Below, in pieces: positions 26,727-60,682 of a stretch of 64,000 nucleotides of DNA. The DNA lies in assembly GCA_963845185.1 (NCBI GenBank), contig CAWJRG010000001.1, positions 96,001-160,000 of the forward strand. Direction: 5' to 3'. Numbering within the stretch: the stretch's first letter is position 1; each line of letters opens with the position of its first letter. The notes under the pieces are model-generated. The model was given only the letters and a program-made list of their open reading frames with translations, was not told the origin of the DNA and did no database searches. The position numbers were made by a program, and so were the translations under genes. The DNA is from an uncultured bacterium (GTDB lineage Bacteria > Oederibacteriota > PGYV01 > CAWJRG01).

Positions 26727-28254
26727 TTATACAGTGCCCTTTCTGTCCAGCTTTGTCGGGTCAGTATAAAGCACCCCGTATTTTTTGGATATCATATTCG
26801 ACGAAATCCTGCCTGATTCGTATATGGTAGGCAGTCCCGAACCCGGATGCGTGCCTCCGCCCACAAGATAAACATTATCAAGGCATTCAAACCGGTTTCT
26901 TGGCCTGAAATAAAGCATCTGCTGAAGATTATGTCCCAGGTTAAATGTGGCTCCGTAGTACACATTCAGGTCGTCGCGCCAGGTGTCAGGCGTGTAAATC
27001 TTTTCCACCTCAATGTTTTCCCTCAAGTCCTTCATCTCTGTGCGCTTTACAACCTCATCAAGCACCCTTTCCTTAAAGGCATCTTTTTCTTTTTCCCAAT
27101 CTATATTTGCTTTTAGATTTGCCACTGGCACTAATATGTATATGGTTGATTTGCCTTCAGGCGCCAGCGTAGGGTCGGTCATTGACGCGTTCTGTACATA
27201 AAATGATATTCTGGTCGGAAAGTATAAGACGCGTGAATATATCCTCCACGTTCTTCCTGTAATCCTTGGCAAAAAATACATTATGATGTGGAAAATTGTA
27301 CTTTTTCTTCACGCCCAGGTATAACATAAATGTAGAACATGAATATTTTCTCTTTGCCAGTTTCCCCGGACTGTATTTTTTAACGCACTTTTTATCCATA
27401 AGGGCCGTGGCAGCATATGAAAAATCAGCGTTAACTATGACTTCGTCCGCGTTTATCATTGTGCCGTCTTCAAGCTCGATTCCTTTTACTGACTTACCTT
27501 CATTTACAAGCCTTTTAACTTTTGTGTTGAGCCTTAACCTGCCGCCTTCTTCCTCAAATACCTTTGCCATGGCCTGGGATATTTTATTCAACCCGCCCAT
27601 GACATGGTATATCCCCCACGCATGCTCTATAAATGCCACCATGGCAAAAGCCGCCGGGCATTCCCATGCCGACATCCCCAGATATTTTGACTGAAAGGTG
27701 AAACAGAACTTTAGGTTGTCGATTTCAAAATACCTTCCAAGCGCCTGAAACACGCTCAAATGAAGGTCAAGTTTAGGAACGGCCTTTAAAAAAGGATTAA
27801 CAAGCATATCCTTGAACGAACTGTACGGTTTCTGCAGGCACGGGAAAAGGTAGTCAAACCTTTCCTTCTCTTTTTTCAGGAATTTCTTCAGACCGCCTTC
27901 CTATCCGGGAAACTCCCTTTTTATCTCTAATTCCATCTTATCATGGTCGTCATAAGCCCTGATTTCGTTGTCGTAAAATTTCAGCCTGTACATAGGGTCG
28001 AGCCGCCTGAAATCAAGGTAATCTTTTGCCTTCCTGCCTGTTTCCTCAAACATCTCTTCAAGGATAAAATTCATCATCAAAAAAGTAGGGCCGATATCAA
28101 AAGTAAACCCGTTAATTTTAATCGGCGCGTTCCTGCCGCCGGCAATAGGTTCTTTTTCAAATATTTCCACATCAAATCCCCTGTGTGCCAGTATCATGCC
28201 TGCCGTTAAACCGCCAGGCCCAGCTCCTACTATAGCTATCTTTTTCTTTTCCAT
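26727..28254 (-). pseudogene. Phytoene/diapophytoene desaturase (CrtI/CrtN family), interrupted by an in-frame TAG (27901-27903) and a +1 frameshift near 27210
   Basis: GAGPGG FAD motif, FDIGPTF, TFQSKYLGMS, SCSTFMLYLG, YLVGGGTHPGSGLPTI spread over three ORFs. Confidence 0.85.
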
Positions 28255-28864: not shown

Positions 28865-29872
28865 TTAGAATTGCACGTTCAGGCCGATTTTATTGTTATT
28901 CCCCAGTACCCCGTATGGTATAAACACATAGTCAAGCCCGTAGGAAATTTCCCCGGCCTTCATTGAAAATCCGGCTCCCAGTGAAAGCCCGCTAGCTGTC
29001 CTGTCAACAAAGTTAAGGTCTTCCCCTGCCCTTAGCGCAAAATTATAATTACCCAAAACTGCCTGCAGATATTCAGCACCTACCTTTACGTCTGCTCCAT
29101 AGCTGAGCCCGTACCCTGTGTCCAGGCTCACGCGTACACGGTTGTTCTCCACAACCATGTTTTTCCACTGCGAATACGCTCCTATGTTAAATGTCATCGG
29201 CGTTATGCCGTTTTCAAAGCTTGTCCCGAGGTTCATGCACGATATACCGAACCCTATCTTGTTCCATATCATTTCTCCCCTGTTCTCCATAAAATCCGCT
29301 TCCTGCAGTGTTATTGTATATATCGCTCCTATGTCTGCTGTTATCCCTGTATTGCTGTATGCGTTTCCAAGGCTCTCTCCGCTCACCTTGAGCTCCATGC
29401 CAAGGTCTATATTTTTTAATGCATCGCTTTTCGTGAATTTATCCAGGCTGCTCCCGTATGCAACTCCTAACAGATAATCATAGCTCCCCACCGTTGCCCC
29501 CTGTCCTCCGTATGTGCCGTTTACGTTCTCGTTTGTCTGCGTGATTTTCCCGCCTGATAGGTACTTAAACGCCGCCCCTATTGTCCCGGCTCCTTCCAGC
29601 GCCTGCTCGTAATAGCCCGAATCAAAAAATACGTCTTCAAAATATATGTCGTGAATAAACGATGCCTCGTGCGCGCCCATAAGTCCAAGCCCTGCAGGGT
29701 TTATGTCAAGCGCGTCTGTATCGTCGCACACTGCTGTGTATGCCCCTCCCATGGACTGGCTTATTATTCCTGCTGGTACTTTCAGGATATCTATTGCTCC
29801 TGTACCCGGCCCTGCTTTTATCAGGCTTATTGCCGTCATCACCGCTATTGCTGTTATTACGATTCTTTTCAC
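28865..29872 (-). CDS. PorV/PorQ (UPF0164)-like outer-membrane beta-barrel, copy 1
   Basis: Signal peptide; SMGGAYTAVCDD...INPAGLG N-terminal motif; alternating beta-strands; ends GLSLGAGF...LDYVF.PYG.LG...NVQF. Confidence 0.85.
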   Translation of the reverse strand: MKRIVITAIAVMTAISLIKAGPGTGAIDILKVPAGIISQSMGGAYTAVCDDTDALDINPAGLGLMGAHEASFIHDIYFEDVFFDSGYYEQALEGAGTIGAAFKYLSGGKITQTNENVNGTYGGQGATVGSYDYLLGVAYGSSLDKFTKSDALKNIDLGMELKVSGESLGNAYSNTGITADIGAIYTITLQEADFMENRGEMIWNKIGFGISCMNLGTSFENGITPMTFNIGAYSQWKNMVVENNRVRVSLDTGYGLSYGADVKVGAEYLQAVLGNYNFALRAGEDLNFVDRTASGLSLGAGFSMKAGEISYGLDYVFIPYGVLGNNNKIGLNVQF

Positions 29873-29960
29873 TTTTTACTCCTTATAGTCCGTTGATTTT
29901 GCCAAGCATATCTTTTGCGAAGCCAAAAATCTTATGGACTCTTGTACCCGAAGTGGTACT

Positions 29961-32900
29961 TCACTTTGTCAGATATATCTTGCCTTTATAAGTACCATTT
30001 GTTGTGGTCACAATGTAGAAATATATGCCTGCTGCAACCTGTTCCCCATTTTTATTCTTTCCGTCCCATTCTATCCTGCCTGTTACCCCGTTTATCTCGT
30101 ACATCTTAAAGCCTTCTATATTATATATAACCACATTGCTGTTTGGAGGTAGGAAATCAAATTTCAGGGTGTGGTTAAAAGCCGTTTCCCTGTTATATGG
30201 GTTTGGATAAACTGCTATTACATCCGGTGTCGGCGTCGGCGACAGGTAAGGCGTGATGGTTGCACTTACGCTTATTGTCGGCGTTATCGTGTATGTGGGG
30301 GTTATAGTATATGTGAGTGTTATCGTGTATGTCATTGTTATTGTATAAGTCTGCGATATTGTCGGGGATATTGTCATTGTCGGCGTTAAAGTCAGAGTTA
30401 ATGTTAAAGTTTGTGTCATTGTAATTGTCTGTGTTATGGTGTTTGTCCATGTAATAGTCGGCGTTATTGTGCATGTTGGCGTTATTGTCCATGTATATAT
30501 AGTTGCTGTATATGTCGGGGTTATTGTAAAAGTCTGTGTTATTGAAGGTGTATCTGTTATTGTAGGCGAATTGGTCAAAGTCTCGGTTATAGTGTAAGTC
30601 GGCGTTTCTGTGTATGTGTCCGTACATGTATCTGTTGCAGTTAATGTTAGGGTCAGCGTCAATGTCTCTGTTTCTGTTATTGTCGGCGTATCTGTGTATG
30701 TAGGCGACCATGTAGCTGTATCCGTGGCAGTAATCGAATATGTAGGCGTTATTGTAGCTGTCTGCGTTATAGTACCAGTCAATGTAATAGTAGGTGTTAC
30801 TGTATAAGTTTGTGTGATTGTCCACGTAAATATAGTAGATGTATATGTAGGTGTTATAGTATAAGTCTGTGTTATTGACGGCGTGTCTGTTATCGTCGGC
30901 GAATTCGTAAATGTAACGGTTATTGTAAAAGTATATGTTGATGTAAAAGTGCATGTCCATGTAGGCGTAGCCGTCGGCGTCCAAGTCTGAGTATTTGTTG
31001 GCGTCCATGTCTGCGAACTTGTTGGCGTCCAAGTCTGAGTATTTGTTGGCGTCCATGTCTGCGAGCTTGTCGGCGTCCAAGTCTGAGTATTTGTTGGCGT
31101 CCATGTCTGCGAGCTTGTTGGCGTCCATGTCGCCGTATTTGTCGGCGTCCGCGTTGACGAGCTTGTTGGCGTCCATGTAGGCGTATTTGTCGGCGTCCAT
31201 GTAGGCGAGCTTGTTGGTGTCCATGTAGGTGTATTTGTCGGCGTCCATGTAGGCGAACTTGTCGGTGTCCATGTCGGTGTATTTGTCGGCGTCCGTGTCG
31301 GTGTATTTGTCGGCGTCCATGTCGGTGTATTTGTCGGCGTAGCTGTCGGCGTCCATGTATATGTCGTGGTGGCTGTTGGTGTCCATGTAGGAGAGTTTGT
31401 TGGCGTGGCTGTCTGCGTCCATGTCCTTGTCGCTGTCCTGGTGGCAGTGTTTGTATAGGTTGCTGTAGGAGCGCTGCTAACCACTATATTATTGCTTGTA
31501 CCGGTTTCTGATGAATATGTCGTATCGGTTACACTTATTTTCTGGGTTCCGTTTGTATTCAGAGTTGCCGTAAAAGAATGCACTCCGTTATCTGTACCTA
31601 TAAATGTATAATTGGAAGGCAGGGTTGCACTGCCGTCAGTAGATGTAAAATGCACCGTACCTAAGTAATTTGCTACCGTGACACCGTAAGCGTCCCTTGC
31701 CCTGACTATCACGTTAAATGACTGGCCTCCGTAAACCGAGAATGGCGCAGACACATCAAATGATATTAAAGGCTGGGAAGTTATTGTCGCGGACACGCCT
31801 GCCCCGTCCGGGTTTGACATGTTGGCTGTTACCCAGTGCTTGGCTCCCTGCACAATTGAAAGTGTAAGGTTTACTATTGCTTGTCCGTTCGCGTCGGTGT
31901 TATTTGTTAAGGGCGCAACTGTGCCGTTGTTTGTGGAGAAAGTCATTGGTACATTTTGTATGCCTACCGTATTTCCTTTTTCATCCACAATTCTTGCTGT
32001 TATGGATATGTTTGTTCCTGCTGTGGCTGTGACCGCTATGCTTGGCGACACCCAAATATAATAACCTGTCGTAACCGTAATGACATCGTTTACTGAGGTA
32101 AGCGCACCTGTTGTATTTTCATCCATAACTGTCATTGTATATGAGCCTTCAACAAATGACTTTATATACACCTGCCCCGCACCGCTCGAATTAAGCATCA
32201 CTGCAGTGGAAGTTGCCCAGTTTACTCCGTCGGTAGAAAAGTCAAAAGTACCTATAGTATCGCCTGCAGGAATGTAAATAAGGTCAGTCGTATGCCCACC
32301 GGGTGCAGGTGCGTTAAAGCCGCCCGCGTCTTTGGCGTTAATATAAAGTATGCTTACTTTTGGCGCACCTGTCGTCGAGCTTGCCGCTATTGAGTCGGGG
32401 CTCGGCAATATGGAAAGGTGCGTAGCCGCGCCTGAGCCTGCTATTGTAAGTGTGGTTCCAAGCAATCCGGGCGAATTAATTACGCAATAATTTTCACCTG
32501 CTGTTGTGCTGGTCCTGAAATATATTGTTATCTGGCCCGATGCGTTTGTTGTGTTTGATAATGATGATACAAAAGATGTCCCGTTTTGTGCCAATGCTGT
32601 TGCTGTGACCCATTGCCCCTGTATTACGTTTCCATAGGCATCCGTCACCTGTGCTGTAATTGTCACCCACTGGCCTGCTGTAACCGCGTAATAGTTTGAT
32701 GTTGCCGAAAGTATCGCTGCAGAGTTTGGAATTATTGTCTCGTAGGCTGTACCTGTTACCAGTCCGGGTGAAGTAGCTGTTATCGTGAGATTGCTTCCGA
32801 CTATTGTGTCCCTGTAATATACGTTTGCGTTTCCATTATTCAATGTGACGTTTAAAGTGGTGTAGTAGTTTGAATTGTCTGTTGAAAACATCATATTACT

Positions 32901-35900
32901 TACAGGCGAACTTAAAAGCACATTTACTGTTGAATAAGCGTCGTTGCCGCCTGAATCTTTTGCCTGTACTGTGAATAATTTACCAACGCCTGCCTTGGCT
33001 GTGCTTGTGACAGGCAATATCGCCAGCGTTACGTCCTGTGCGTTGTTGACAAATACCGTGGCGTTTCCTGTAGTCAATCCAGAGGCTGTAGCCGAAACAT
33101 AAGCGCCTGTTATATTTGGCTGGGTGTCCTTTACAAGTATATTGTTCGGCGCTGCGCCTGAAAGATTAAGAGTGGCATGCCATGTCGTACCGTTATCGCT
33201 CGAAAAAGACATGTTTGTGTCGTTTGCCGTTACTGTAATCGGCTGAGATGAAGACGTTACGTTTCCGTAGGCGTCTTCTATCCTTACAAGCATGGACCCG
33301 TTTACGTTTGTCTGAGTGGTAAGCGTATTTGGTATTATATCTACTTTCGCAGCCGACCCTGCCACAAAATTCACTGTTATTATGCTTGTAAGGTGCGCTG
33401 AACGTACTGTCACTACAGCAGGGCCCGCAGCAGTAGAACTTATCAGGTTGTACGCGTATCCACCGGGCGCATTTGTAACTGCCAGTGTGTCAGCCGCTGT
33501 CGTAAGTATAGGCGTTATTGAATCCTGTGACCTGTTTGATGTGCAATTTACAAGTGCGTAAGGTATTCCTGCGGCACCCCCTGCAACTTGCCCGACAGAT
33601 AAAAGCTGCGCTGTAATTGTGACATATGCCCCTCCTACTTGAACAGTTCCTGTCGGTACCTGGCTGACAGCCAGGCTTTTTACTATCCATATATAATTAT
33701 TCAGGGGTGCCGGCGTGCTTATGCCTCCGTTGCCCTGGCTGGTTGCTCCATTGACTGATGTTGCACCGCTGTAAGGTATAGTATTAAAATCAGAAAAGAA
33801 GTTTTCCAGTATGTTTCCGCTTGAATTGGTGAAAACTATATTGTCATACACTGCATTAAAAGTACCGGCCTTGTTTGAGGGTGCGCCATTATACCCGATA
33901 TTGCCTGTGTCCTGCGACAACTCTGCCTGGTTGTAACTAGACCCCGACAGTGCGCCTATATTAAATTTCCTGTGGTACCATTGACCGTTTGCATAAGCTC
34001 CAAGGTCCATAGACGGATGGCACCTGATTCCATTCTGGTCTATTATATAACTCTGTGTCGCCTGCCCGTAATCACGCATCTGGTTGCCCGTCCAGGTGCC
34101 CTGGAACTCCGTGCCTGTGTAAAAATCAACGTTATAAGATGGCATAAAAACATTATACTGAAGGTAGTCGCCAGCCGCTATTGCCGTATTTGCAGGTGCT
34201 GAAATCAGGATATAAACAAATTCATAGGTATCCGCAGCTGTAAGATATGAAGTCAAAAGCAAAGGCTGGCTGTATGAAGTGCCGCCGGATAGCACGGTTA
34301 TGTTGTTGCTTATGCCTGTTATAGCTCCCGATGTCGCGGTTATAGTCTGTGTACCTGCGGTTACAAGCGTTGCAGCAAATATCCTGCTGCCTGAATCGCT
34401 TGTCTGGAATGTATACGCTGAAGGCAGCACAACACCGCTGCCTGTATCGCTTGAGGAGAAACTAACCGTCCCCGTAAAATTTGTAACCTGGTTGTTGTAT
34501 TGGTCCATGGCCGTCACAACAAAATTAAACGCCACTCCTGAGTTTACTGTGGACGGAGCTGTTACCGTGAATTTATACAGTGATCCCGCAATGACATTTA
34601 TAGCGTTGCTTGTGCCGAAAATTGACGAGTTTATTATATCAGTACCGGTTATAGTCTGTACCCCGGCTGTCACAAGAGTTACTGCAAGTACTTTCGTACC
34701 CAGATCCGACGCCAGGAAAGTATAGTCAGCAGGCAATGCTTTGCTGAGGCTCGGGTCAGTGGATGTGAAGGCTACCGTACCTGTGTACCCAGTGGCGACG
34801 TTATTGTAGTTATCTTTAGCCGTTATTGTTATCCAGAATTGCTGCCCAGCTGTCACCTGGGAAGGTGCGGATATTGTGAAATATACCGCGCTGCCTCCAA
34901 GCACAATCACGCTTGCCGTGCCGCTGACATTGGTCTGTACCGTGTCGTTTGCTGTGATTGTCTGTGTTCCCGATGTAACCAGTGTCACTTGAAATAAATG
35001 AGAGCCGCTATCAGTTGTTGGTATGTAGGTATAATTTCCAGGCAAGGTGGCTGCGAGGTCGCTTGAAACAAACTGCACCGTGCCGTTATAATTATTAACA
35101 ACCAGATTATCGAGTGTTTCAGCAGTCACAGTTATAAAAAAAATGGCTCCTGCCGTAACCGACACTGGCGCGGCTACAACGAAATGGTCTACTGCCTTTG
35201 TCGGCGTATATGTGGGCGTTGGAGAATTCGTGGGCGTAATTGTAAATGTATAAGTTAAAGTCACCGTCAAGGTCAGTGAAGAAGTCAACGTTACTGTAGG
35301 GGTATAAGTCGGCGTCATTGTCGGGCTGGCAGTAAATGTGTATGTTGGCGTATTTGTTGGCGTCCATGTCGGTGTCCATGTCGGCGTTTCTGTCGTTGTA
35401 TTCGTGAAGGTAGGCGTCCATGTTGGTGTACATGTATATGTCGGCGTTACAGTATTTGTTGGTGTCCATGTCGGCGTATATGTAGGCGTGTTAGTCGGCG
35501 TCCATGTCGGCGTTTCTGTAGGTGTCCATGTCGGCGTATATGTAGGCGTCCATGTCGGCGTATCCGTCGGCGATGTGGTTTCTGTCGGTGTAACCGTCGG
35601 CGTCCATGTTGGTGTAGAAGTAAACGTCGGTGTCCATGTCGGCGTGGCTGTTGGTGTACCTGTAGTCGTATTCGTCGGTGTCCATGTCGGCGTGGCTGTT
35701 GGTGTCCATGTTGGCGTATTCGTCGGTGTCCATGTAGGTGTTTCTGTCGGTGTCCATGTCGGCGTATATGTCGGTGTCCATGTCGGCGTATTTGTCGGCA
35801 ATATCGTGTATGTAGGGGTATTAGTCGGAGTCCATGTCGGCGTTGCTGTATATGTTGGTGTCCATGTCGGCGTATTTGTCGGTGTCCATGTAGGCGTATT

Positions 35901-38582
35901 TGTCGGCGATATCGTGTATGTAGGGGTATTAGTCGGAGTCCATGTCGGCGTTGCTGTATATGTTGGTGTCCATGTCGGCGTTGCTGTTGGCGTATTCGTC
36001 GGCGTATTAGTCGGTGTCCATGTATTCGTATCCGTTAAAGTCCAAGTTGGGCTGTTTGTCGGTGTAGCAGTGAAAGTCGGGGTATTTGTACCTGTCCATG
36101 TAGGCGTAGCCGTAGGAGTCCATGTAGGCGTATCAGTTTGAGTTGGAGAATTGGTAGGCGTAGGCGAATTCGTGTATGTCTTGGTTATTGACGGTGTAGC
36201 CGTGAACGTCGGCGTTATTGTATATGTAGGCGTTATTGTAGGCGTGTATCCGGGATTCCTGGTAAAATTAATTGTTACCTGGCTGATGTACGGCGAAACA
36301 AAATTATTAAAAGTTTTTAAAACCGCCTTCCATAAAAGCTGTGTTCCAGCGCCTAACGCAACTCCCACTCCCGGTGTTACCTGCTGCCATGTAGTCCCGT
36401 TGTTCGCAGAAAGATAATAACTTATTACCTGGTTGTTTAATGTCTGGTTGGCTGTCAATGTGGCGTATGCATATCCTGCGGACCACGTGTCTATTGCCAA
36501 AGACTGCGCCACGCCCGTGGATAAAAAATACAAGCCGTATATGTTCAGTTTAGCGTTATCCCCTCCCACCAAAAACGACCCGTTACCAAAGTCCACTGTA
36601 TTTATTGTTGACTGGTTGAAATTCACAAGGCTGCTGCTGTCGTTTGTGTAAGTACCGCCCGGTCCTCCTGGATTATTTATTATCTGCGCCCCTGTTCCTC
36701 CTATAAACCAGTTTGAGCTCGACGGGTTTACATCAACGCCGTATATGTTGTTGCCAGAACCAAAACTCAGGGCGCTTGTATCCGAATAATAACTGAGTTG
36801 CGACGAATCATAATGCCCCATCTGCCCGCTGTTGCATCCAAACCGAGTTATATTGATTCCATCGCATTTTATGCTGTTTATACCATAACTTCCGCCCAGC
36901 GCGCCGGAAAGTAATCCGCTTGCGTCACTGAAACTGCTGCCGCCGTCATAAGTATTTAATTCCCCGCCGCTGCCTCCTATGAACCACCAGCCATCGCCGC
37001 TGACGCCGTCCCAGTCAGCTGCTTTTACAGCGTCGCCGCTGTTCCAGTTCGTCAGCCCTGACGACTCGTCTGTAATTGTAGTACCGTTGTATATTGCCAG
37101 GTGTTGACTGTCACCGCCTATAAGCCACTGTCCTCCGTTTGCGCTTGTCCATTTTACAGCGTTTATGTTTATGTTTGATGAACTCCAGCCTAATGCTGAA
37201 TTCAACGAAGTGAATGTTGTGCCGTCATACTTTGAAATATATCCTCCCGCACCGCCTATCAGCCAGTATGAGCCGTTCCATCCCACTGCCAGTACGTTGT
37301 TTGCTCCAAACCCGAGGCTTGACCTCAAATCGTAAAACATATAAGTGCTCGCGTCAATTGTGTTCAGGTCTCCGTCCGCCCCGCCTATTATCCAGTATGC
37401 CCCGTTATACCCGGCGCATTTTATCGAATCCGCACCAAAATCCGTTATATTGTGTGATAAATCCGTATTTGTCGGTGAGTTATAAGTCCCGGTCCTTTCC
37501 AGTATTTTGCCGTTTTGGCCACCGATTAAATTTGTCGCGCTTGACTGCTTGTCCGTTCCTATTGCCCATATCGGACCTGTTGAAAAATATGACGGCATTG
37601 TCTGCAAATTGTAACTTGCGTCACCTGCTGTCTGCGGGCAGTATAGCGCTGTATTAGAGCCGTTATTCCCTCCTATCATCCAGTAGCTGCCGTTCCATTT
37701 TATCGCCCATATTGAAGAGAATGTTACTTTGCTGCTCTCGTCCGTAAAGCTCGTCCCCCCGTTATAAGTCGCAAGCTTGCCGCTGCCTCCACCAAGCATC
37801 CATATCCCCGCAGTGCTGTTATAGTCAATCGCATATATGTCATAGGATGTGCCACCCCATGCGGTATTAAGATATGTTGTTAAATCTGTAAACGTGCTGC
37901 CGTTATAACTTACTATCCTCCCGCCTGTTAATCCTATCAGCCAGTTCCCACCGCTTCCGTATGAGACCGCCCTTATGTCGTAAGTTGAAATCCCTGAAGG
38001 TAGTGATGCTTTAAGGCTGGTCCAATTTGTGCCGTCATATTTGTTTATCGACCCGCTGCTTCCGGCTATCAGCCAGTAAGCTCCGTCGGGATTATAGCCT
38101 ATAGTGTATATATTGCCGCTGAATGTTTGAAGGTTCCCCTTGTAATCTGTCCATGTGGTGCCATCCCACTTGTTTAATGTTATATTGTCTCCACCTATCA
38201 GCCAGTAACTGCCGTTATACTTGATAGAGCGGATGTTGCTGTTCCCAAAATTCACCAGGTTCGACGAAAAGTCTATGAAATGCGCGCCATCCCATTCATT
38301 AATTTTTGCCTGCAATCCGCCTATTAGCCACTGGGTAGATGACGCATACTCTATGGCTGTTATCCCGCCTCCCCAGTCTATAACTCCTGTTGTTCCTAAA
38401 AATCCATTTGCTTTTGCGAGTATGGCATAATGGTCAATAATATCCCAGTTTGCTGTCGTACTTGCAGTATTTTCATAAGTAGTGGCATTAAAATTTTCGG
38501 TAAATGTAATAGCCCGCAGCGACATTATAGCGCACAATAATATAGAAAGTGTAAAAACTGTAGTAAATACTTTTCTTCTCAT
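29961..38582 (-). CDS. Giant secreted surface protein A (about 2870 aa): 14-repeat predicted beta-propeller head, TPT linkers, Ig/invasin-like stack, T9SS/FlgD-like CTD
   Basis: ATG 38582 after GAGG; signal peptide; WLIGG..YDGT repeats; Ig repeats [53 protein letters not shown]. Confidence 0.88.
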
Positions 38583-38616
38583 TCTTATTACCTCTTTATT
38601 TGCTATATTACTTACA

Positions 38617-38645
38617 ATTTTACCACAAAATTCCAACAATTTCAA
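38617..38645 (-). promoter_or_regulatory. Promoter of module A
   Basis: TTGAAA-17 bp-TAAAAT. Confidence 0.5.
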
Positions 38646-38748
38646 TTTAAAATTAAAGGTTTAAGATGAATAAATAATAGATAGGGTATAAATTTTAGGA
38701 TGATTTAGCAATAAAGCATTCATGATAAAAGAAAAAGATTTCCTTTTG

Positions 38749-39756
38749 TTAAAATTGCACGCTCAGGCCAATTTTATTGTTATTCCCCAGTACCCCGTAT
38801 GGTATAAATACATAGTCAAGCCCGTAGGAAATTTCCCCGGCCTTCATTGAAAATCCGGCTCCCAGTGAAAGCCCGCTAGCTGTCCTGTCCACAAAGTTAA
38901 GGTCTTCCCCTGCCCTTAACGCAAAATTATAATTACCCGAAACTGCCTGCAGATATTCAGCACCTACCTTTACGTCTGCTCCATAGCTGAGCCCGTACCC
39001 TGTGTCCAGGCTCACGCGTACACGGTTGTTCTCCACAACCATGTTTTTCCACTGCGAATACGCTCCTATGTTAAATGTCATCGGCGTTATGCCGTTTTCA
39101 AAGCTTGTCCCAAGGTTCATGCACGCTATACCAAACCCTACCTTGTTCCATATCATTTCTCCCCTGTTCTCCATAAAATCCGCTTCCTGCAGTATTATTG
39201 TATATATCGCTCCTATGTCTGCTGTTATCCCTGTATTGCTGTATGCGTTTCCAAGGCTCTCTCCGCTCACCTTGAGCTCCATGCCAAGGTCTATGTTTTT
39301 TAATGCATCGCTTTTCGTGAATTTATCCAGGCTGCTCCCGTATGCAACTCCTAATAGATAATCATAACTCTCCACCGTTGCCCCCTGCCCTCCGTATGTG
39401 CCGTTTACGTTCTCGTTTGTCTGCGTGATTTTCCCGCCTGATAGGTACTTAAACGCTGCCCCTATTGTGCCGGCTCCTTCCAGCGCCTGCTCGTAATAGC
39501 CTGAATCAAAAAATACGTCTTCAAAATATATATCGTGGATAAATGATGCCTCGTGCGCGCCCATAAGTCCAAGCCCTGCAGGGTTTATATCAAGCGCGTC
39601 TGTATCGTCGCACACTGCTGTGTATGCCCCTCCCATGGACTGGCTTATTATTCCTGCTGGTACTTTCAGGATATTTATTGCTCCTGTACCTGGCCCTGCT
39701 TTTATCAGGCTTATTGCCGTCATCACCGCTATTGCTGTTATTGCCATCCTTTTCAT
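38749..39756 (-). CDS. PorV/PorQ-like outer-membrane beta-barrel, copy 2
   Basis: 335 aa, about 9 residue differences from copy 1 by eye. Confidence 0.85.
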   Translation of the reverse strand: MKRMAITAIAVMTAISLIKAGPGTGAINILKVPAGIISQSMGGAYTAVCDDTDALDINPAGLGLMGAHEASFIHDIYFEDVFFDSGYYEQALEGAGTIGAAFKYLSGGKITQTNENVNGTYGGQGATVESYDYLLGVAYGSSLDKFTKSDALKNIDLGMELKVSGESLGNAYSNTGITADIGAIYTIILQEADFMENRGEMIWNKVGFGIACMNLGTSFENGITPMTFNIGAYSQWKNMVVENNRVRVSLDTGYGLSYGADVKVGAEYLQAVSGNYNFALRAGEDLNFVDRTASGLSLGAGFSMKAGEISYGLDYVFIPYGVLGNNNKIGLSVQF

Positions 39757-39784
39757 TTTTCCACTCCTGCTAATATTAATATCG

Positions 39785-42700
39785 TCACTTTACCAGGTAT
39801 ATCTTGCCCTTATAAGTGCCGTTTGTCGTGGTCACAATGTAGAAATATATACCTGCCGCTACCTGCTCCCCGTTTTTATTCTTCCCGTCCCATTCTATCC
39901 TGCCTGTTGCACCGTTTATCTCGTATATTTTAAAACCTTCTATATTATATATAACCACATTGCTGTTTGGAGGCAAAAAATCAAATTTCAGGGTGTGGTT
40001 AAACGCCGTTTCCCTGTTATATGGGTTTGGATAAACTGCTATCACATCCGGCGTCGGTGTCGGTGTCAAATACGGAATTACTGTAGGCGTTATGCTTATT
40101 GTCGGTGATATAGTGTATGTGGGGGTTATCGTATATGTAAGTGTTATCGTGTATGTCATTGTTATTGTATATGTCTGCGATATCGTAGGTGTTATGGTGT
40201 AAGTAAAGGTTACCGTCTCCGTGCTCGTAGAAGTCTTGGTTATTGTGCTTGTCCATGTAATGGTCGGCGTTATGGTGCATGTTGGTGTTATTGTCCATGT
40301 GTATATGGTCGCCGTGTATGTAGGCGTTATTGTAAATGTCTGAGTTATTGTTGGCGTATCTGTAATTGTAGGCGAATCCGTTGATGTCGGAGTTATTGTA
40401 TAAGTTGGCGACGCTGTAAATGTTGGGGTGCTTGTAGGTGTCCATGTAGGCGTGTCTGTTGGCGTGATTGTCGGCGTATTTGTATTTGTATTAGTCGGCG
40501 TATTCGTTGGTGTGGCTGTCGGTGTACCTGTACTTGTCGGCGTGACCGTGGAGGTTGCTGTGAATATTACAGCTGTTGTGTGTACGTCATTTGAATAAGC
40601 CGCAAAATGCGTCGGCCCTGTCTGGTAAACAGCGTAGCTTGTGTTATCCCATCCTGCTGCTGTACCGAGCAAATATGTGACTGTAACGCTGCCTGATGCG
40701 TTGATATCAAGCGCTCCCAGGTTCCATACAACCATGCCGCTTGCAGTCGTTGTGTTCCCGCCTCCGGTTGAGGAAACATATGTCATATTCGCCGGTATTG
40801 TATCGTAGATCGTAACATTATAAGCGATCCCGGAAACGTTCTGGTAATTGATTGTGTATGTAATCGGCCAGCCTATCTGGTCCTGGGCCGGCCCTGATTT
40901 CGTAACATACATCTGCGGGACTGTTTCAGATGTGTTTGGCGATTCAAACAAAGAATTGAAAAAATACCTCATAGCCGGTCCCTCGGCATTTCCTGTGTAC
41001 GGAAGCGTGTAAGCTGACTGGTGCTCGCACATATATGAAACCTTGCCGCAGCTTGTTATGCCGTGGTAATAACCGGTCATGTACATATTAGGGTAAGTGC
41101 CGCCCGAAGAAGCCAGGTTTACCTGTATAACCGATGATGAACCTCCGTAAAAAACACTGCCCGGTGCCAGTTGGAATGCAGTCTCAGCTCCGGTGGCGTT
41201 TGTCCACTGGCCCGTGGCCTGGCCAAACGGCGAGTCCGGAAGAACATTGGCTGTCCTGGTGATGTTCTGGGCTGTTGATGTAAGGCCAAGTGTTGTCAGC
41301 CAGTGGCCGTGGCCTCCGTAAATCCAGTTTGCCTGCGATGTAGGCGTGGTTGATATAATATCATTTTCAAAAGCGTCCACAGAAATACACTGCGCAAAAA
41401 CATGCGAACCGGGATATTTCACATATGTTTCAATCTCAGCTATTGCCTCGGCGTCATTCGCGGTTGTTTGCGAATTGGGGCAGCCGTCATAGCCTGCGTC
41501 GCAGCTCGGTCCCACGGGATATGCGGCCCAGTGCTCGTTGATAAGCGTGCAGTATTTAGGCAGCCCGTCCGGAGTTAAAAACAACGCGCCGTCATGATGG
41601 TCTGTTGTAGTCGAACCCGCAATCTGCGCCGCTGTAAGGACATCCGGCGAAGTGACTGGCCATGTAGCATTTCCTGTGGAATCCGGAATGCCCGCGTTAC
41701 TTAAATAAGTTGCCGCTATCTGCCATGTACCGCGCGGGTCGTCGTTTGCGAAAAGCGCGATTCCCGGTGCTGCCCTTAATCTTCTGAATACCGGCGCCCC
41801 AAATGTCCCGGTACCTGTGTACTGGTGCACCTGCACAATATTGGTAGTCTGCCCGTTGTTCCATGCCGTAATAATGGCCATTGCCGCGACAGTATTGTCT
41901 TTAATGTCTATTATAAAAGGCCCGCCGTCGTAAACAGGGTTTGTATATACCGCGGCTGTACGTACATCAGTTGTCTGGCTGCAGGTAAAATCCGTGGCTT
42001 CATAAGCTTTATAGGATTTAATGGCCCAGTTAACAGGGATGCCGTGAAGCAATAACTGATAAACAAGACCATACGCTCTCCACATGCTGTTATTCTGGTT
42101 TGTCCGCCCGGCCGTGGTATCCATTGGTATAATCAAAGAACCTGTGCCAAAAGTTACAGTCGGGTTCTGGGTCGCTGTCGGGCTGGCGGTCCATGTCGGG
42201 GTAATCGTATATGTGACTGTAATGGTAGTGCTGAAAACAGGTGTTGAGGTCAATGTCGGAGTAATCGTCGGGGAATTGGTGTATGTATAAGTTTGGGTAA
42301 TACTCGGCGTTCCCGTAAATGTGGGTGATGGTGTCGGAGTATTTGTTAATGTTATTGTATCGGTCGGCGTCCATGTAGGAGTGACTGTTTGCGTCCATGT
42401 CGGCGTGGCTGTTTCTGTGTCTGTTGGCGTCGGTGTATTTGTGGATGTTGATGTGTAAGTAGGCGTCCATGTATACGTTGGCGTAGCCGTAGGTGTCCAT
42501 GTTGGTGTGGCTGTTTGAGTTGGGGAATTTGTGGGCGTAGGTGAATTCGTGCATGTCTTGGTTATTGACGGCGTAGGCGTTATCGTCGGTGTTATTGTGT
42601 ATGTTGGCGTTATTGTGGGTGTGTATGCTGGGTTTCTGGTAAAATCAATTGTTATCAGGCTGACGTCCGGAGAAAAAATGTTGTCACTGGTCTTTAAAAC

Positions 42701-44959
42701 CGCCTTCCATATAAGCTGCGAACCAGTAACTGTCAAAGTAATGCCAGTGCCGGATATCACCTGTTCCCAATTGGCTCCATTGTTGTCGGAAAGATAATAA
42801 CTTATAGCCCCGTAACTGCCTAAATTCTGTGTCGCGGTTAAAGTGACGCTTGAATATCCCGAAGCCCATGCGTCTATTGTAATCGATTGCGCGACGCCTG
42901 GTGATAAATAATTCAACCCGTATATATTCAGTTTTGCGTTGTCCCCTCCTATTATAAACGACCCGTTTCCAAAGGCAATTGTATTTATAGTTGACTGGTT
43001 GAAGTTCACAAGGCTACTGCTGTCATTTGTGTAAGTACCGCCTGGACCACCTGCATTATTTACTATTTGCCCGCCCGTACCGCCCATAAACCAATTTAAA
43101 CTCGACGGGTTTACATCCACGCCGTATATGTTATTGCCAGAACCAAAACTCAGGGCGCTTGTATCCGAATAATAACTGAGTTGCGATGAATCATAATGCC
43201 CCATCTGCCCGCTGTTGCATCCAAACCGAGTTATATTGCCGCCGTCCCATTTTATGCTGTTTATACCGTAACTTCCGCCCAGCGCGCCGGAAAGTAATCC
43301 GCTTGCGTCACTGAAACTGCTGGTGCCGTCATAAGTATTTAATTCCCCGCCGCTGCCTCCTATGAACCACCAACCATCATACGGGTTGCCGTCCCAATCC
43401 GCCGCCTTTACAGCGTCGCTGCTATTCCAGTTTGTCAAACCTGATGACTCGTCTGTAATTGTAGTACCGTTGTATATTGCCAGGTGTTGACTGTCACCGC
43501 CTATAAGCCACTGGTTATTTGCCCATTTTATAACGTTTATGTTTATGTTTGATGAACTCCAGCCTAATGCTGAAGTCAACGAACTGAATGACGTCCCGTT
43601 ATACGATGAAAGATATCCTCCAGCGCCTCCTATCAGCCAGTACGAGCCGTTCCATCCCACTGCCAGTACGTTGTTTGCTCCAAACCCGAGGCTTGACCTC
43701 AAATCGTAAAACATATAAGTGCTCGCGTCAATTGTGTTCAGGTCTCCGTCCGCCCCGCCTATTATCCAGTATGCCCCGTTATACCCGGCGCATTTTATCG
43801 AATCCGCACCAAAATCCGTTATATTGTGTGATAAATCCGTATTTGTCGGTGAGTTATAAGTCCCGGTCCTTTCCAGTATTTTGCCGTTTTGGCCACCGAT
43901 TAAATTTGTCGCGCTTGACTGCTTGTCCGTTCCTATTGCCCATATCGGACCTGTTGAAAAATATGACGGCATTGTCTGCAAATTGTAACTTGCGTCACCT
44001 GCTGTCTGCGGGCAGTATAGCGCTGTATTAGAGCCGTTATTCCCTCCTATCATCCAGTAGCTGCCGTTCCATTTTATCGCCCATATTGAAGAGAATGTTA
44101 CTTTGCTGCTCTCGTCCGTAAAGCTCGTCCCCCCGTTATAAGTCGCAAGCTTGCCGCTGCCTCCACCAAGCATCCATATCCCCGCAGTGCTGTTATAGTC
44201 AATCGCATATATGTCATAGGATGTGCCACCCCATGTGGTATTGAGATATGTTGTTAAATCTGTAAACGTGCTGCCGTTATAACTTACTATCCTCCCGCCT
44301 GTTAACCCTATCAGCCAGTTCCCACCGCTTCCGTATGAGACCGCCCTTATGTCGTAAGTTGAAATCCCTGAAGGTAGTGATGCTTTAAGGCTGGTCCAAT
44401 TTGTGCCGTCATATTTGTTTATCGACCCGCTGCTTCCGGCTATCAGCCAGTAAGCTCCGTCGGGATTGTAGCCTATAGTGAAGACACTTCCGCTAAATAA
44501 TATAAGGTTTGCTTTATAATCGCTCCACGTAGTGCCGTCCCATTTGTTTAATGTCGTGTTATCGCCGCCTATCAGCCAGTAACTGCCGTTATATTTGATT
44601 GAGCGGATGTTGCTGTTCCCGAAATTCACCAGGTTCGACGAAAAATCTATAAAATTTGTCCCGTCCCATTCATTTATCTTTGCCTGTAATCCGCCGATTA
44701 GCCACTGGGTAGATGACGCGTACTCTATGGCTGTTATCCCGCCTCCCCAGTCTATAACTCCTGTTGTTTCTGCAAATCCATTTGCTTTAGCAAGTATGGC
44801 ATAATGGTCTAAAATATCCCAGTTTGCCGTGGTACTTGCAGTATTTTCATAACTGGTGTTAGTAAAATTTTCAATAAAAGTATTTGCCCGCAGCAGCACT
44901 GCAGTGCATAATAATAATATGGAAGCTGTAAAAACTGTGGTTAATATTCTCTTTTTCAC
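39785..44959 (-). CDS. Giant secreted surface protein B (1724 aa): same head and CTD as A, different central domain plus DUF11-like domain
   Basis: GTG start after GAGG; paralogous propeller repeats; central SLIIPMD...RAYGLVYQLL..G.PV.WAI domain; VTKSGP..ITYTINYQN..DTIPANMTYVS; near-identical CTD. Confidence 0.88.
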   Translation of the reverse strand: MKKRILTTVFTASILLLCTAVLLRANTFIENFTNTSYENTASTTANWDILDHYAILAKANGFAETTGVIDWGGGITAIEYASSTQWLIGGLQAKINEWDGTNFIDFSSNLVNFGNSNIRSIKYNGSYWLIGGDNTTLNKWDGTTWSDYKANLILFSGSVFTIGYNPDGAYWLIAGSSGSINKYDGTNWTSLKASLPSGISTYDIRAVSYGSGGNWLIGLTGGRIVSYNGSTFTDLTTYLNTTWGGTSYDIYAIDYNSTAGIWMLGGGSGKLATYNGGTSFTDESSKVTFSSIWAIKWNGSYWMIGGNNGSNTALYCPQTAGDASYNLQTMPSYFSTGPIWAIGTDKQSSATNLIGGQNGKILERTGTYNSPTNTDLSHNITDFGADSIKCAGYNGAYWIIGGADGDLNTIDASTYMFYDLRSSLGFGANNVLAVGWNGSYWLIGGAGGYLSSYNGTSFSSLTSALGWSSSNININVIKWANNQWLIGGDSQHLAIYNGTTITDESSGLTNWNSSDAVKAADWDGNPYDGWWFIGGSGGELNTYDGTSSFSDASGLLSGALGGSYGINSIKWDGGNITRFGCNSGQMGHYDSSQLSYYSDTSALSFGSGNNIYGVDVNPSSLNWFMGGTGGQIVNNAGGPGGTYTNDSSSLVNFNQSTINTIAFGNGSFIIGGDNAKLNIYGLNYLSPGVAQSITIDAWASGYSSVTLTATQNLGSYGAISYYLSDNNGANWEQVISGTGITLTVTGSQLIWKAVLKTSDNIFSPDVSLITIDFTRNPAYTPTITPTYTITPTITPTPSITKTCTNSPTPTNSPTQTATPTWTPTATPTYTWTPTYTSTSTNTPTPTDTETATPTWTQTVTPTWTPTDTITLTNTPTPSPTFTGTPSITQTYTYTNSPTITPTLTSTPVFSTTITVTYTITPTWTASPTATQNPTVTFGTGSLIIPMDTTAGRTNQNNSMWRAYGLVYQLLLHGIPVNWAIKSYKAYEATDFTCSQTTDVRTAAVYTNPVYDGGPFIIDIKDNTVAAMAIITAWNNGQTTNIVQVHQYTGTGTFGAPVFRRLRAAPGIALFANDDPRGTWQIAATYLSNAGIPDSTGNATWPVTSPDVLTAAQIAGSTTTDHHDGALFLTPDGLPKYCTLINEHWAAYPVGPSCDAGYDGCPNSQTTANDAEAIAEIETYVKYPGSHVFAQCISVDAFENDIISTTPTSQANWIYGGHGHWLTTLGLTSTAQNITRTANVLPDSPFGQATGQWTNATGAETAFQLAPGSVFYGGSSSVIQVNLASSGGTYPNMYMTGYYHGITSCGKVSYMCEHQSAYTLPYTGNAEGPAMRYFFNSLFESPNTSETVPQMYVTKSGPAQDQIGWPITYTINYQNVSGIAYNVTIYDTIPANMTYVSSTGGGNTTTASGMVVWNLGALDINASGSVTVTYLLGTAAGWDNTSYAVYQTGPTHFAAYSNDVHTTAVIFTATSTVTPTSTGTPTATPTNTPTNTNTNTPTITPTDTPTWTPTSTPTFTASPTYTITPTSTDSPTITDTPTITQTFTITPTYTATIYTWTITPTCTITPTITWTSTITKTSTSTETVTFTYTITPTISQTYTITMTYTITLTYTITPTYTISPTISITPTVIPYLTPTPTPDVIAVYPNPYNRETAFNHTLKFDFLPPNSNVVIYNIEGFKIYEINGATGRIEWDGKNKNGEQVAAGIYFYIVTTTNGTYKGKIYLVK

Positions 44960-44994: not shown

Positions 44995-45023
44995 ATTCTA
45001 ACAATAAATTTTTATAATTGCAA
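44995..45023 (-). promoter_or_regulatory. Promoter of module B
   Basis: TTGCAA-17 bp-TAGAAT with extended -10 TG. Confidence 0.5.
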
Positions 45024-58900: not shown

Positions 58901-60351
58901 TACGGACCTTGATATTGCCACCCATCGCCTGCGTCACTCGAGTAATCGTCAATAACTGTAATATCCTGCGTCGCAGCGCCGCTGTTGTTGCATATTGCGA
59001 GAGTGAAAGTAAGGTTGGTATTTGTGGAACTGATTGTCGTTAAGCTGGATGTTTTTAACAGCGTAAATGCAGGCGTGGGTGTTACTGTAAATGTCCGCGT
59101 CGCTGTCGGTGTCGGTGTATATGTCGGGGTTACAGTCGGAGTGAAAGTTTTTGACGGGCAGAAATTGGAAAACGGCACGCCGCTGTATGCATATGCCCAT
59201 GCAGAACCTGTGTTATATGTCAGGGTAACGCTGTTGTACCAGCTTACGCATTCAACCACGTTCCATGACTCGCATGCCCATGTAAAATCATAGCAGGGCG
59301 TGCCGCAAGTACCCCCCGTACAGGTAACTCCTGGAAACCCCTCTTCAAAAATAAGGTATGGGTTCAGGTTGGCCGCAAGGGCGTTAGATGAAATATCGCC
59401 GTAATAAAACCCGTTTATAAGGCCTCCGGTATTGGGACCGTATGGCCCCTGGTATTGCCACTGGCTGGCCGCATCGCTCCATTGGTCATTTGTCCAGACC
59501 GTGGTTGTGGTGCCGCCGCCTGTGTTGCATATATGGAAGGCAAAACTGATGATATCCTGCGAGGCTGATACAATAGTATTGCTCGCCACAGATTTTACTA
59601 TTGTCATGTTCGGCGGCGCGGGCGTTGGCATCTCATTTAAGTTAAACCCCTGCCTGAAAAATAATTGCTGGCACCCGGTAGATATGCTTCCAAAGCCCAA
59701 AGGCATCAGTGGATTATGGAACTGAAAAGAGCCTATTTTCTGGCCGTATTCCGTACCGTTATAAATTATGCCTGTAGCAGAAGACCAGCCCGATTCTGTA
59801 TAGTGAGGGTTATACCATGTGTAAGTCCCGTCGTTAGGCCCTTTATCACAGGATGTCGGCGGTACAGTTGCATTACAGCATGAATTGGTATCCTCAAGAT
59901 AATCAACCCCTGCGCCGTTGTCGCTGTCAACATAACTGTGCGCCCCTCCCTGGCAAGTGATATCCATTGACCACGTTGCCCACATTTCACAGCATTGCGT
60001 GTTCTGGTCATGCACTGCTATTACATTTCCTGTTGGTGCCAGCCCGAGTGTCCCAAGCTCTGCCGAACTCAGGGTCATGCAGGGGGGAGACTCCTGGCCT
60101 GTCAAGCTCACGTCCACGTATCCGAAAGTCCCCAGGTATATCCCGTTGATATAAATGTCTGCTATGTCGTCAACAGCTGCGCATATAATGGCGGATTGGG
60201 GCGTGCAGACAATTGCTGCCGCATGCAAACTGAAATTTAATAAAACAAAAAACAAAAATAAGAACAAAATTATTTTTGTTTTACTGCCAACCCCCCTTTT
60301 GGCAGCATGTAACAGCTTTGAATCCCTGTGCCTGATTTCTCCAGGGTTCAT
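49940..60351 (-). CDS. Giant secreted protein C (about 3470 aa if the -1 frameshift near 58712 is repaired): Cys-rich head, two DUF11-like domains, about 2570-aa Thr-alternating stalk, triple FlgD/T9SS-like Ig C-terminus
   Basis: ORFs 58684..60366 and 49940..58744 overlap at CCCGGG and join as [15 protein letters not shown] 60351 after GGAGG; three IYN.AGEL..W(D/N)...G.Y modules. Confidence 0.8.
52860..57650 (-). repeat. About 19 tandem 252-bp (84-aa) coding repeats with higher-order structure
   Basis: Antisense ORF ends recur at 252-bp steps (53951, 54203, 54455, 54707, 54959, 55211...); unit contains [23 protein letters not shown]. Confidence 0.93.
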
Positions 60352-60682
60352 TACTAATGCCTCCATATTATTAAAATGACGTTTCTTTTTCTTCTATTTC
60401 ATTTCTTCAATAATTATAATTAAGTTTCGCTATTTTATCAAGGGAATAGTCAAGCCAACATTTTTTCATTTGTCAAAATGAGCGTTCCATACTTTATTGT
60501 TTCATTAATTCAATTATGTCTGGTTATTAATTGGCTTTTCTTGAAATTTCCCTTTCGCTGTTGATAACTCCTTTATTTTTAACTATTCAAAAAATACTTT
60601 ACATATTATTTGACAACATAAATATTAAAAAGTTCTGGTATTTCAATGTATTTGTGTTTATTATTTGAAGATATCACATAAC

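What the first reader, a model, noticed from the sequence alone, without database searches (positions are those of the whole stretch)
28865..44959. Tandem 'giant cargo + dedicated PorV-like barrel' modules: a T9SS-like adhesin display system apparently outside Bacteroidota
Seen: two head-to-tail copies of [giant secreted protein -> PorV/PorQ-like barrel], each with its own candidate promoter. Both cargos end in an almost identical about 85-aa CTD ([37 protein letters not shown]), and the barrels differ at about 9 of 335 residues. Known: in Bacteroidota T9SS, PorV shuttles type A CTD cargos, and type B cargos are co-encoded with cognate PorP/SprF barrels. Inference: here type-A-like CTD cargos carry cognate co-encoded PorV-like partners in a genome whose housekeeping order (radA-yacL-ispD-ispF-cysS-rlmB, rpsP-khpA) looks non-Bacteroidota, suggesting a divergent or minimal T9SS-like export/anchoring system. 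No SprA or PorK-N genes are visible in this window.
Basis: partly seen in the sequence, partly recalled or inferred. Interest (0 to 1): 0.82.

Follow-up and report, generated by a model that had tools for sequence, protein, structure and literature searches.

The report
Duplicated stalked protein with carrier barrel
An uncultured Goldbacteria-type bacterium carries two recent copies of a giant stalked surface-protein gene paired with a PorV-like outer-membrane barrel gene, part of a type 9-like export system that has the pore but no detectable motor, in a lineage where published reviews say this system does not occur.

Summary
In detail: two head-to-tail [giant CTD protein -> PorV-family barrel] units. 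Barrels differ at 10 of 335 residues, CTDs at 3 of 85. The tandem is a recent local duplication with a swapped middle module. The single pair is conserved in 16 of 23 other genomes of the order. The host groups with Ca. Goldbacteria, not FCB. Its genome encodes 38 PorV-family ORFs (26 directly behind a CTD gene), 154 CTD proteins and one SprA-fold barrel. GldL/M/N models found nothing, while a Bacteroidota control rang. The modelled barrel-CTD complex passed (0.84, best control 0.05; may reflect solved look-alikes). Best reading: SprA-exported stalked adhesins held by an uncleaved CTD on a co-encoded barrel, as in PorQ-PorZ. Strict one-to-one specificity, promoters and true motor absence are not shown. 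The same gene order occurs once on a Rhodothermus plasmid. This scan noted the system before, in this genome and in others. Verdict: new variant of T9SS.

The parts
39785..44959 (-). Cargo B, 1724 aa: signal peptide, ~750-aa repeat head (probable double beta-propeller), Thr/Pro stalk (766-942), ~520-aa swapped module ending in DUF11, second Thr/Pro stalk (1456-1643), CTD
   Evidence: propeller inferred from weak hits only
39788..40051 (-). CTD of cargo B (last 88 aa): TIGR04183 23.8 bits (cut-off 23), CHU_C 35.6 (cut-off 27); nearly invariant Lys in the last strand; best solved match PorZ CTD (5M11, E 2e-8)
38749..39756 (-). Barrel B, 335 aa, PorV/PorQ-family 14-strand outer-membrane barrel with N-terminal plug and C-terminal Phe
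   Evidence: NF033709 87.5 bits, cut-off 90; model pLDDT 82.8; top fold hit 8GL6_F, TM 0.70
29961..38582 (-). Cargo A, about 2873 aa from the ATG at 38582 (ORF runs from TTG 38645): same head (86% identical to cargo B), Thr/Pro stalk, ~1240 aa of Big_1/invasin-like Ig repeats, second Thr/Pro stalk, CTD; the architecture found in most relatives
29964..30227 (-). CTD of cargo A (97% identical to that of cargo B); TIGR04183 22.4 bits, just under cut-off
28865..29872 (-). Barrel A, 335 aa, 97% identical copy of barrel B
44995..45023 (-). Sigma-70-like site upstream of cargo B (9 of 12, TG extension); not above chance
38617..38645 (-). Sigma-70-like site upstream of cargo A (10 of 12, TG extension), in the duplicated block; not above chance

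Best explanation
Each unit is a two-gene export-and-display module of a reduced type 9-like secretion system in a Goldbacteria-type diderm. The cargo crosses the inner membrane by Sec (signal peptide; inferred). Its CTD enters the single SprA-fold pore encoded elsewhere (G000:C9:181574-188011; fold shown, transport inferred) and binds the outer loops of the co-encoded PorV/PorQ-family barrel (modelled). The barrel then leaves the pore and, with no PorU-type sortase detected, stays bound to the uncleaved CTD as a non-covalent anchor, as PorQ does for PorZ and SprF-like barrels do for type B cargo (inferred by analogy). A probable beta-propeller head is held off the cell on Thr/Pro stalks and Ig repeats, so the cargo is most likely an adhesin (inferred). 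No GldLM motor or GldN ring was detected, so release is either unpowered (tight CTD binding plus diffusion) or uses another energiser such as ExbBD/TonB (open). The tandem is a recent duplication in this lineage, followed by a swap of the middle module.
For: PorV fold of the barrel. CTD families and PorZ match. SprA match by profile (E 2.7e-41 to 6H3I_A) and by fold (top four hits all SprA, E 6e-37 to 8e-32, next 2e-6; 26 long strands in the C-terminal half). 26 of 38 barrel ORFs follow a CTD gene directly, 3 of 38 precede one, and CTD genes are 5.3% of genes. In 16 of 16 orthologous loci a CTD gene ends within 60 bp of the barrel, and the two window CTDs are its best two matches among 154. 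Complex model: score 0.84, best of 3 controls 0.05, runs agree in at least 97% of contacts, partner pLDDT at least 88; that mark was reached by 116 of 157 solved complexes and 2 of 215 mismatched pairs (roughly applicable, own alignments); contacts include the conserved last-strand Lys83, which echoes the Lys-PorV bond in PMC10994853 (passages). PorV family in 99 of 99 and SprA-like in 92 of 99 phylum genomes; GldM 0 of 99, GldN 0 of 99, GldL 0 of 31, with a Parabacteroides record ringing for all three. PorU model matches only CTD positions, bar one weak stretch.
Against: No experiment. PorV-CTD complexes are solved (8GL6 and others), so the model may pass from memory, and close cousins of a true partner also pass: it does not show cognate specificity. 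No barrel-CTD co-divergence beyond recent co-duplicates (Mantel r 0.09, p 0.14, n 25; r -0.01, p 0.54, n 19). 128 of 154 CTD genes have no barrel behind them. The SprA-like protein is so diverged that P. distasonis SprA alone does not find it and the SprA model scores only 29-69 bits per stretch, so an equally diverged motor could be missed. One CTD-bearing C25 peptidase exists, so CTD cleavage is not excluded. In F. johnsoniae release from the pore needs the motor (PMC10994853 passages). Barrel scores (86-88 bits) are just under the NF033709 cut-off of 90.
Confidence: 0.68

Rival explanations
1. A complete but highly diverged T9SS: motor and ring exist but escape the models, and the barrels are recycling shuttles that hand cargo on for cleavage or release.
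For: SprA-like protein is far below its cut-off and invisible to a single-sequence search; FGE-domain lipoproteins and a CTD-bearing C25 peptidase are present; release needs energy in the model system.
Against: No hit in 99, 99 and 31 genomes although SprA and PorV models ring across the phylum. No GldK-like hit has GldLMN-like neighbours. A topology screen that the control GldL/GldM pair satisfies gave 0 pairs at the strict and 3 unconvincing pairs at the loose threshold. No motor-like gene is conserved beside sprA in 21 loci. A recycling shuttle would not need 38 paralogues.
Confidence: 0.17
2. Class-level, not gene-level, pairing: each barrel serves a class of CTDs, so the window's barrel also carries unpaired cargos, and the adjacency is co-expression kept by descent.
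For: The window CTD falls in a cluster of 14 (75-bit links) of which 11 are unpaired; several large CTD clusters have only 1-3 paired members, some none; no deep co-divergence; three orphan type B cargos share one shuttle in F. johnsoniae (PMC12618676, abstract and passages).
Against: Paired CTDs are mostly private classes (median 1 neighbour against 10 for unpaired, p 1e-5, paralogues not independent); the unpaired members are only 35-43% identical to the window CTD, orthologous CTDs 45-65%. This rival is compatible with most of the best explanation and changes only the word 'dedicated'.
Confidence: 0.4
3. Two-partner-like export: the 14-strand barrel exports or inserts its cargo without SprA, or the barrel is a FadL-like small-molecule channel unrelated to the cargo.
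For: FadL/TodX channels follow PorV in the fold search (TM 0.41-0.59); fixed cargo-barrel adjacency.
Against: PorV scores clearly higher (TM 0.70); a plugged 14-strand barrel is too narrow for folded domains (established knowledge); SprA-like gene in 92 of 99 phylum genomes; modelled contacts are on the loops.
Confidence: 0.07
4. The tandem is an assembly artefact of one locus.
For: Metagenome-type assembly, long low-complexity Thr/Pro repeats; relatives show one copy.
Against: Copies differ at 30 of 1008 nt in the barrel and about 12% in the head, and carry unrelated middle modules, both reading frames intact; cargo B's module has a 68% match in another genome.
Confidence: 0.04

Closest known systems
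PorQ-PorZ sub-complex of the Porphyromonas gingivalis T9SS
   Same: PorV/PorQ-family barrel (NF033711 45 bits, NF033709 86-88 bits); CTD closest to PorZ's (5M11); PorZ keeps its CTD (PMC11285876 passage) and is anchored by PorQ, proposed to collect it from Sov (PMC10947112 passages). PorZ also has propeller domains (recalled).
   Different: Here the cargo is 1700-2900 aa with stalks and Ig repeats, the genes are adjacent, there are 38 barrel paralogues, and no PorU sortase partner was detected.
SprA-PorV-type A CTD translocon of Flavobacterium johnsoniae (PDB 6H3I, 8GL6, 8GL8)
   Same: SprA-fold pore, PorV-fold barrel, CTD with conserved last-strand Lys.
   Different: One PorV serves all type A cargos and release needs GldLM. 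Here GldL/M/N were not detected, the SprA-like protein is shorter (2145 vs 2403 aa) and starts with FN3 domains, and 23 of 38 barrel ORFs carry C-terminal extensions.
Type B CTD cargo with cognate PorP/SprF barrels (SprB-SprF and others)
   Same: Barrel gene directly downstream of a large adhesin-like cargo; some orphan cargos (PMC12618676). The CHU_C model scores above cut-off on both cargos.
   Different: Barrels are not PorP/SprF (PF11751: no match in G000); TIGR04131 did not match the two cargos; none of 154 CTDs has the PNxDGxND-type motif (motif recalled).
Rhodothermus marinus pRMAR01 locus RMAR_RS14115-RMAR_RS14110
   Same: CTD protein directly upstream of an annotated PorV/PorQ family gene; CTD homologous to the window's (hhalign 97.5%, E 7e-12, 34% identity).
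   Different: Inside the FCB group, next to a TonB-dependent receptor; one record, annotation only, and I found no paper on it.

Membership tests
Canonical T9SS | SprA/Sov giant barrel translocon | tested here: met
   Profile E 2.7e-41 to SprA, fold hits E 6e-37; below the TIGR04189 cut-off; full strand count not modelled (residues 946-2145 only)
Canonical T9SS | PorV-family carrier barrel | tested here: met
   14-strand model, top hit PorV TM 0.70; window copies 86-88 bits vs cut-off 90, most paralogues above it
Canonical T9SS | Cargo with signal peptide and C-terminal CTD | tested here: met
   signal peptides read by eye
Canonical T9SS | GldL/GldM (PorL/PorM) motor | tested here: not met
   PF12081 0 of 99, TIGR03513 0 of 31, TIGR03517 none in G000; control rang; very diverged forms not excluded
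Canonical T9SS | GldK/GldN (PorK/PorN) ring | tested here: not met
   PF19841 0 of 99, control rang; GldK model matches only FGE-domain stretches, at most 45 bits vs cut-off 350, without operon context
Canonical T9SS | PorU sortase / CTD cleavage | tested here: inconclusive
   NF033707 matches only CTD positions and one 31-bit stretch; that protein is a C25 peptidase with CTD; activity untested
Canonical T9SS | SprE, SprT/PorT, PorG, PorW, Plug | not tested
   no search run for these
Canonical T9SS | Host in Bacteroidota/FCB | tested here: not met
   RelA's nearest clade (55-84%) holds three records named Ca. Goldbacteria/Goldiibacteriota, next tier Bacillota; barrel homologue named Goldiibacteriota; no concatenated tree built
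Canonical T9SS | CTD-dependent secretion across the outer membrane | not testable with these tools
   needs experiment
Type B cargo / PorP-SprF pair | Barrel gene directly downstream of cargo | tested here: met
Type B cargo / PorP-SprF pair | PorP/SprF-family barrel (PF11751) | tested here: not met
   no match in G000 or on the window barrels
Type B cargo / PorP-SprF pair | Type B CTD (TIGR04131, conserved motifs) | tested here: inconclusive
   CHU_C above cut-off but no TIGR04131 match and recalled motif absent
Type B cargo / PorP-SprF pair | Specific recognition of cognate CTD | tested here: inconclusive
   complex model passes but cannot tell cognate from cousin; co-inheritance 16 of 16; no deep co-divergence
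PorQ-PorZ-type anchor | Uncleaved CTD bound to a PorV-family barrel on the surface | not testable with these tools
   suggested; needs proteomics

The most novel reading that the evidence does not exclude
A whole non-FCB phylum runs a motor-less, sortase-less type 9 pathway: one SprA pore plus dozens of PorV-family barrels that act as an address code, each catching its own CTD class and staying on as the permanent surface anchor. This would be the simpler state from which the PMF-driven Bacteroidota T9SS and gliding machine were built, and would show how kilo-residue folded cargo leaves SprA without GldLM.
Probability: 0.35. Interest if true: 0.85.

Novelty: new variant of a known kind. Interest (0 to 1): 0.62.

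Why it matters
A 2024 paper states that T9SS genes are absent from bacterial phyla outside FCB (PMC11285876 passage), and motor-driven release is held to be the energy-requiring step (PMC10994853 passages). Here the pore, carriers and tags are phylum-wide without a detectable motor, and CTD-tagged genes fill 14% of this genome. If true, it gives a minimal natural system (SprA-like pore, barrel, CTD) for testing what the motor is for and how carrier specificity is encoded, and a likely route for surface enzymes in a cellulose-binding lineage whose describing paper does not mention T9SS in its main text. The tandem in this window is only a recent duplication of one member; the interest lies in the system, not in the repeat.

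Tried and rejected
Ribosomal L19 scan for taxonomy: best matches at most 60% identical and scattered over phyla, uninformative. Promoter scan: not above shuffles. Mirror (Mantel) test of barrel vs CTD identity in 25 pairs (one split barrel dropped), and 19 after removing near-duplicates: no correlation. Single-sequence searches with P. distasonis GldL/M/N/PorP found nothing, but its SprA also failed to find the SprA-like gene, so these negatives carry no weight (first try timed out). The GldN control needed four handle searches: 0 of 5, 0 of 5, 0 of 5, then 1 of 5. FGE-domain protein against plasmids: only generic SUMF1-type hits among the 60 of 284 listed. ESM Atlas: head region best 0.89, middle module of cargo B best 0.82, both leads only. 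Sequencing runs: none was listed, so no read check of the junction or of expression. Literature searches for prior description: T9SS+Goldbacteria 0 papers; candidate-phylum names; Elusimicrobi+type IX secretion 5 papers, none describing it by listing; broader term sets showed none in the listings seen (25-30 of 32-290 hits each). Subscription journals and supplements were not searched. Rejected: 'two different modules' (recent duplication); 'arrangement unique to non-Bacteroidota' (Rhodothermus).
Full report
OBSERVATION. On the minus strand the order is cargo B (44959-39785, 1724 aa), 28 bp, barrel B (39756-38749), cargo A (38645 or, more likely, ATG 38582 to 29961), 88 bp, barrel A (29872-28865). 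The barrels differ at 10 of 335 residues (one is the start codon) and 30 of 1008 nt; the last 85 cargo residues differ at 3; the first ~850 residues are 86% identical. Three DNA blocks are duplicated: head plus upstream region (87.7%), tail (81.9%) and barrel (96.8%). The middle parts are unrelated. Promoter-like sites exist upstream of both cargos, but the count is below shuffles (33 vs 38.7) and both lie in the duplicated block.

ANATOMY. Barrel: NF033709 PorV_fam 86.3 and 87.5 bits (cut-off 90), weaker PorQ and PorV equivalog hits. The model (pLDDT 82.8) has an N-terminal plug and 14 strands. The top fold match is PorV 8GL6_F (TM 0.70); 6H3I_F scores TM 0.66, FadL-type channels 0.41-0.59. 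CTD: TIGR04183 23.8 and 22.4 bits (cut-off 23), CHU_C 35.6 and 33.4 (cut-off 27). A profile of 18 orthologous CTDs finds PorZ (5M11, E 2.4e-8) first of 13 solved sequences listed; Lys83 in the last strand is nearly invariant. Cargo: ~750-aa head with ~44-residue repeats whose weak matches are beta-propellers (Aip1 and Ycf48 at E 5e-5 to 1e-4; propeller families in at most 3 of 14 members; Atlas leads under 0.9). Thr/Pro stalks flank a middle module: Big_1/invasin-like Ig repeats in cargo A, an unassigned ~400-aa region plus DUF11 in cargo B. No catalytic domain was found, so 'adhesin' is inference.

HOST. The closest RelA homologues (55-84%) include three named Ca. Goldbacteria/Goldiibacteriota; the next tier (45-48%) is named Bacillota where named. 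One barrel homologue carries the same name. PMC7031533 (passages) places Goldbacteria beside Firestonebacteria and Elusimicrobia and has no T9SS mention in the main text; its supplements were not read. G000 is 99.4% complete and has lipid A and O-antigen genes (lpx labels by resemblance). I built no concatenated tree.

GENOME CONTEXT. Iterated profiles find 38 PorV-family ORFs (two are halves of one split gene) and 154 proteins with a terminal CTD, 14% of the genome. 26 of 38 barrel ORFs have a CTD gene directly upstream on the same strand, 3 of 38 directly downstream; CTD genes are 154 of 2898 genes, and 35 of 154 follow another CTD gene. One 2145-aa ORF (C9:181574-188011) matches TIGR04189 in four stretches of 29-69 bits, single copy. 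A 21-sequence profile hits F. johnsoniae SprA at E 2.7e-41 (titin scores alike through the FN3 part). A model of residues 946-2145 (pLDDT 83.7, pTM 0.51) shows 26 long strands in its C-terminal half, and its four best fold hits are SprA (E 6e-37 to 8e-32, next 2e-6).

WHAT IS MISSING. Across the phylum PorV-family genes occur in 99 of 99 genomes (10-64 first-look candidates each) and SprA-like genes in 92 of 99 (7 over cut-off). GldM matched 0 of 99, GldN 0 of 99, GldL 0 of 31. A P. distasonis record with annotated gldLMN rang at E 6e-58, 6e-64 and 1e-70. GldK matches are FGE-domain lipoproteins without gldLMN-like neighbours. PorP/SprF did not match G000; it matched 12 of 31 sampled genomes, mostly weakly. 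PorU matched CTD positions only, plus one 31-bit stretch in a CTD-bearing C25 peptidase. Limits: the control is a canonical member, and P. distasonis SprA alone misses the SprA-like gene, so a strongly diverged motor is not excluded. A topology screen gave 0 strict and 3 loose, unconvincing gene pairs. G000 has five MotA/ExbB matches, one flagellar by context, which are candidate energisers, untested.

IS THE BARREL DEDICATED? For: orthologues (E under 1e-110) occur in 16 of 23 other genomes of the order, one each among the 22 or fewer candidates scored per genome. All 16 have a CTD gene ending within 60 bp, and in all 16 the window's two CTDs are the best matches among 154. Among 13 more distant barrels, 5 had an upstream CTD gene. 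The cargo is orthologous too: 14 of 16 have cargo A's Ig middle, one has cargo B's module (68% identical against 42% for the head, suggesting a module swap) and one is too short to tell; no second copy lay in the fetched stretches, some cut by contig ends. Paired CTDs are mostly private classes. The complex model scored 0.84 against a best control of 0.05 (3 controls; contacts agree at least 97%; partner pLDDT at least 88; mark reached by 116 of 157 solved and 2 of 215 mismatched pairs, roughly applicable here), with barrel residues 107-123 against the CTD's first and last strands. Against: like complexes are solved and close cousins pass, so the model shows likeness only; co-inheritance of neighbours is expected from descent; there is no deep co-divergence; 128 of 154 CTD genes are unpaired and 11 of them cluster with the window's CTD.

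MECHANISM. Shown: gene order, folds, phylum-wide co-occurrence, non-detection of the motor. Modelled: CTD on barrel loops. Inferred: Sec export, passage through the SprA-like pore, retention by an uncleaved CTD, adhesin function. The nearest precedent is PorQ collecting PorZ from Sov and anchoring it (PMC10947112 passages; uncleaved CTD, PMC11285876 passage), combined with the gene order of type B pairs (PMC12618676 abstract, outline and passages). How cargo is released without GldLM is open, as PMC10994853 (passages) makes release the powered step.

KNOWN OR NEW. It works like the outer-membrane half of T9SS but fails membership of the canonical system on motor, ring and host. PMC11285876 says T9SS genes are absent outside FCB; PMC11205867 (abstract, passages) confines it to FCB; PMC8542988 (passages) adds only a CTD in Cloacimonadota. 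My searches (listings only, except papers named here) showed no description for Goldbacteria. The cargo-then-PorV order with a homologous CTD is present on R. marinus pRMAR01, so the arrangement is shared with at least one FCB member. SprA-like homologues also carry Elusimicrobia and Coatesbacteria names. Earlier notes of this scan describe the same system in this genome and others; they are unchecked AI notes and I did not count them as support.

VERDICT. Real; a new variant of a known kind. The tandem is a recent duplication of one conserved cargo-barrel pair; the phylum-wide, apparently motor-less system is the finding of value. Interest 0.62.

Noticed in passing
window 49940-60366 (-): A giant CTD protein is split into a 560-aa signal-peptide/DUF7507 ORF and an overlapping 2934-aa ORF in another frame; long internal repeats (many offsets of about 252 bp) and three CTD-like domains at the end.
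   Followed up: partly
window 60758-64000 (-): Tail of another triple-CTD protein whose Thr/Pro repeat region reads in a shifted frame, suggesting a frameshift or assembly slip in the repeats. A cluster of 13 related CTDs has no adjacent barrel.
   Followed up: no
window 26727-28254 (-): Three consecutive ORFs look like pieces of one phytoene-desaturase-like FAD oxidoreductase (family label by resemblance).
   Followed up: no
L115:15548-18958 (G000:C9:188047-191457): An FN3-repeat CTD protein lies directly behind the sprA-like gene in 17 of 21 loci across the phylum: candidate housekeeping partner (Plug- or PorZ-like role untested).
   Followed up: partly
L186-L202 (G000 barrel fusions): 23 of 38 barrel ORFs have C-terminal extensions; of 16 scanned, 6 carry TPRs, 3 FlgD_ig plus OmpA, 3 FlgD_ig only, 2 FN3, 2 nothing known. 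OmpA fusions would tie the barrel to the wall.
   Followed up: partly
L185:879-5852 (G000:C5:17878-22851): A 1657-aa C25 (gingipain-family) peptidase with CBM_3-like region and CTD; the only candidate for PorU-like activity.
   Followed up: partly
G000:C9:136504-142003: A split PorV-like gene lies about 4 kb from a split exbB-like gene; another exbB sits beside a large secreted protein and a barrel-ended protein at C10:531502-536958.
   Followed up: no
L167:5537-11596: A relative whose only cargo has cargo B's middle module at 68% identity against 42% for the head: possible lateral module exchange.
   Followed up: partly
L205:2989-12936 (R. marinus pRMAR01): FG-GAP protein with FlgD_ig tail, TonB-dependent receptor, CTD protein and PorV/PorQ gene in a row.
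   Followed up: partly
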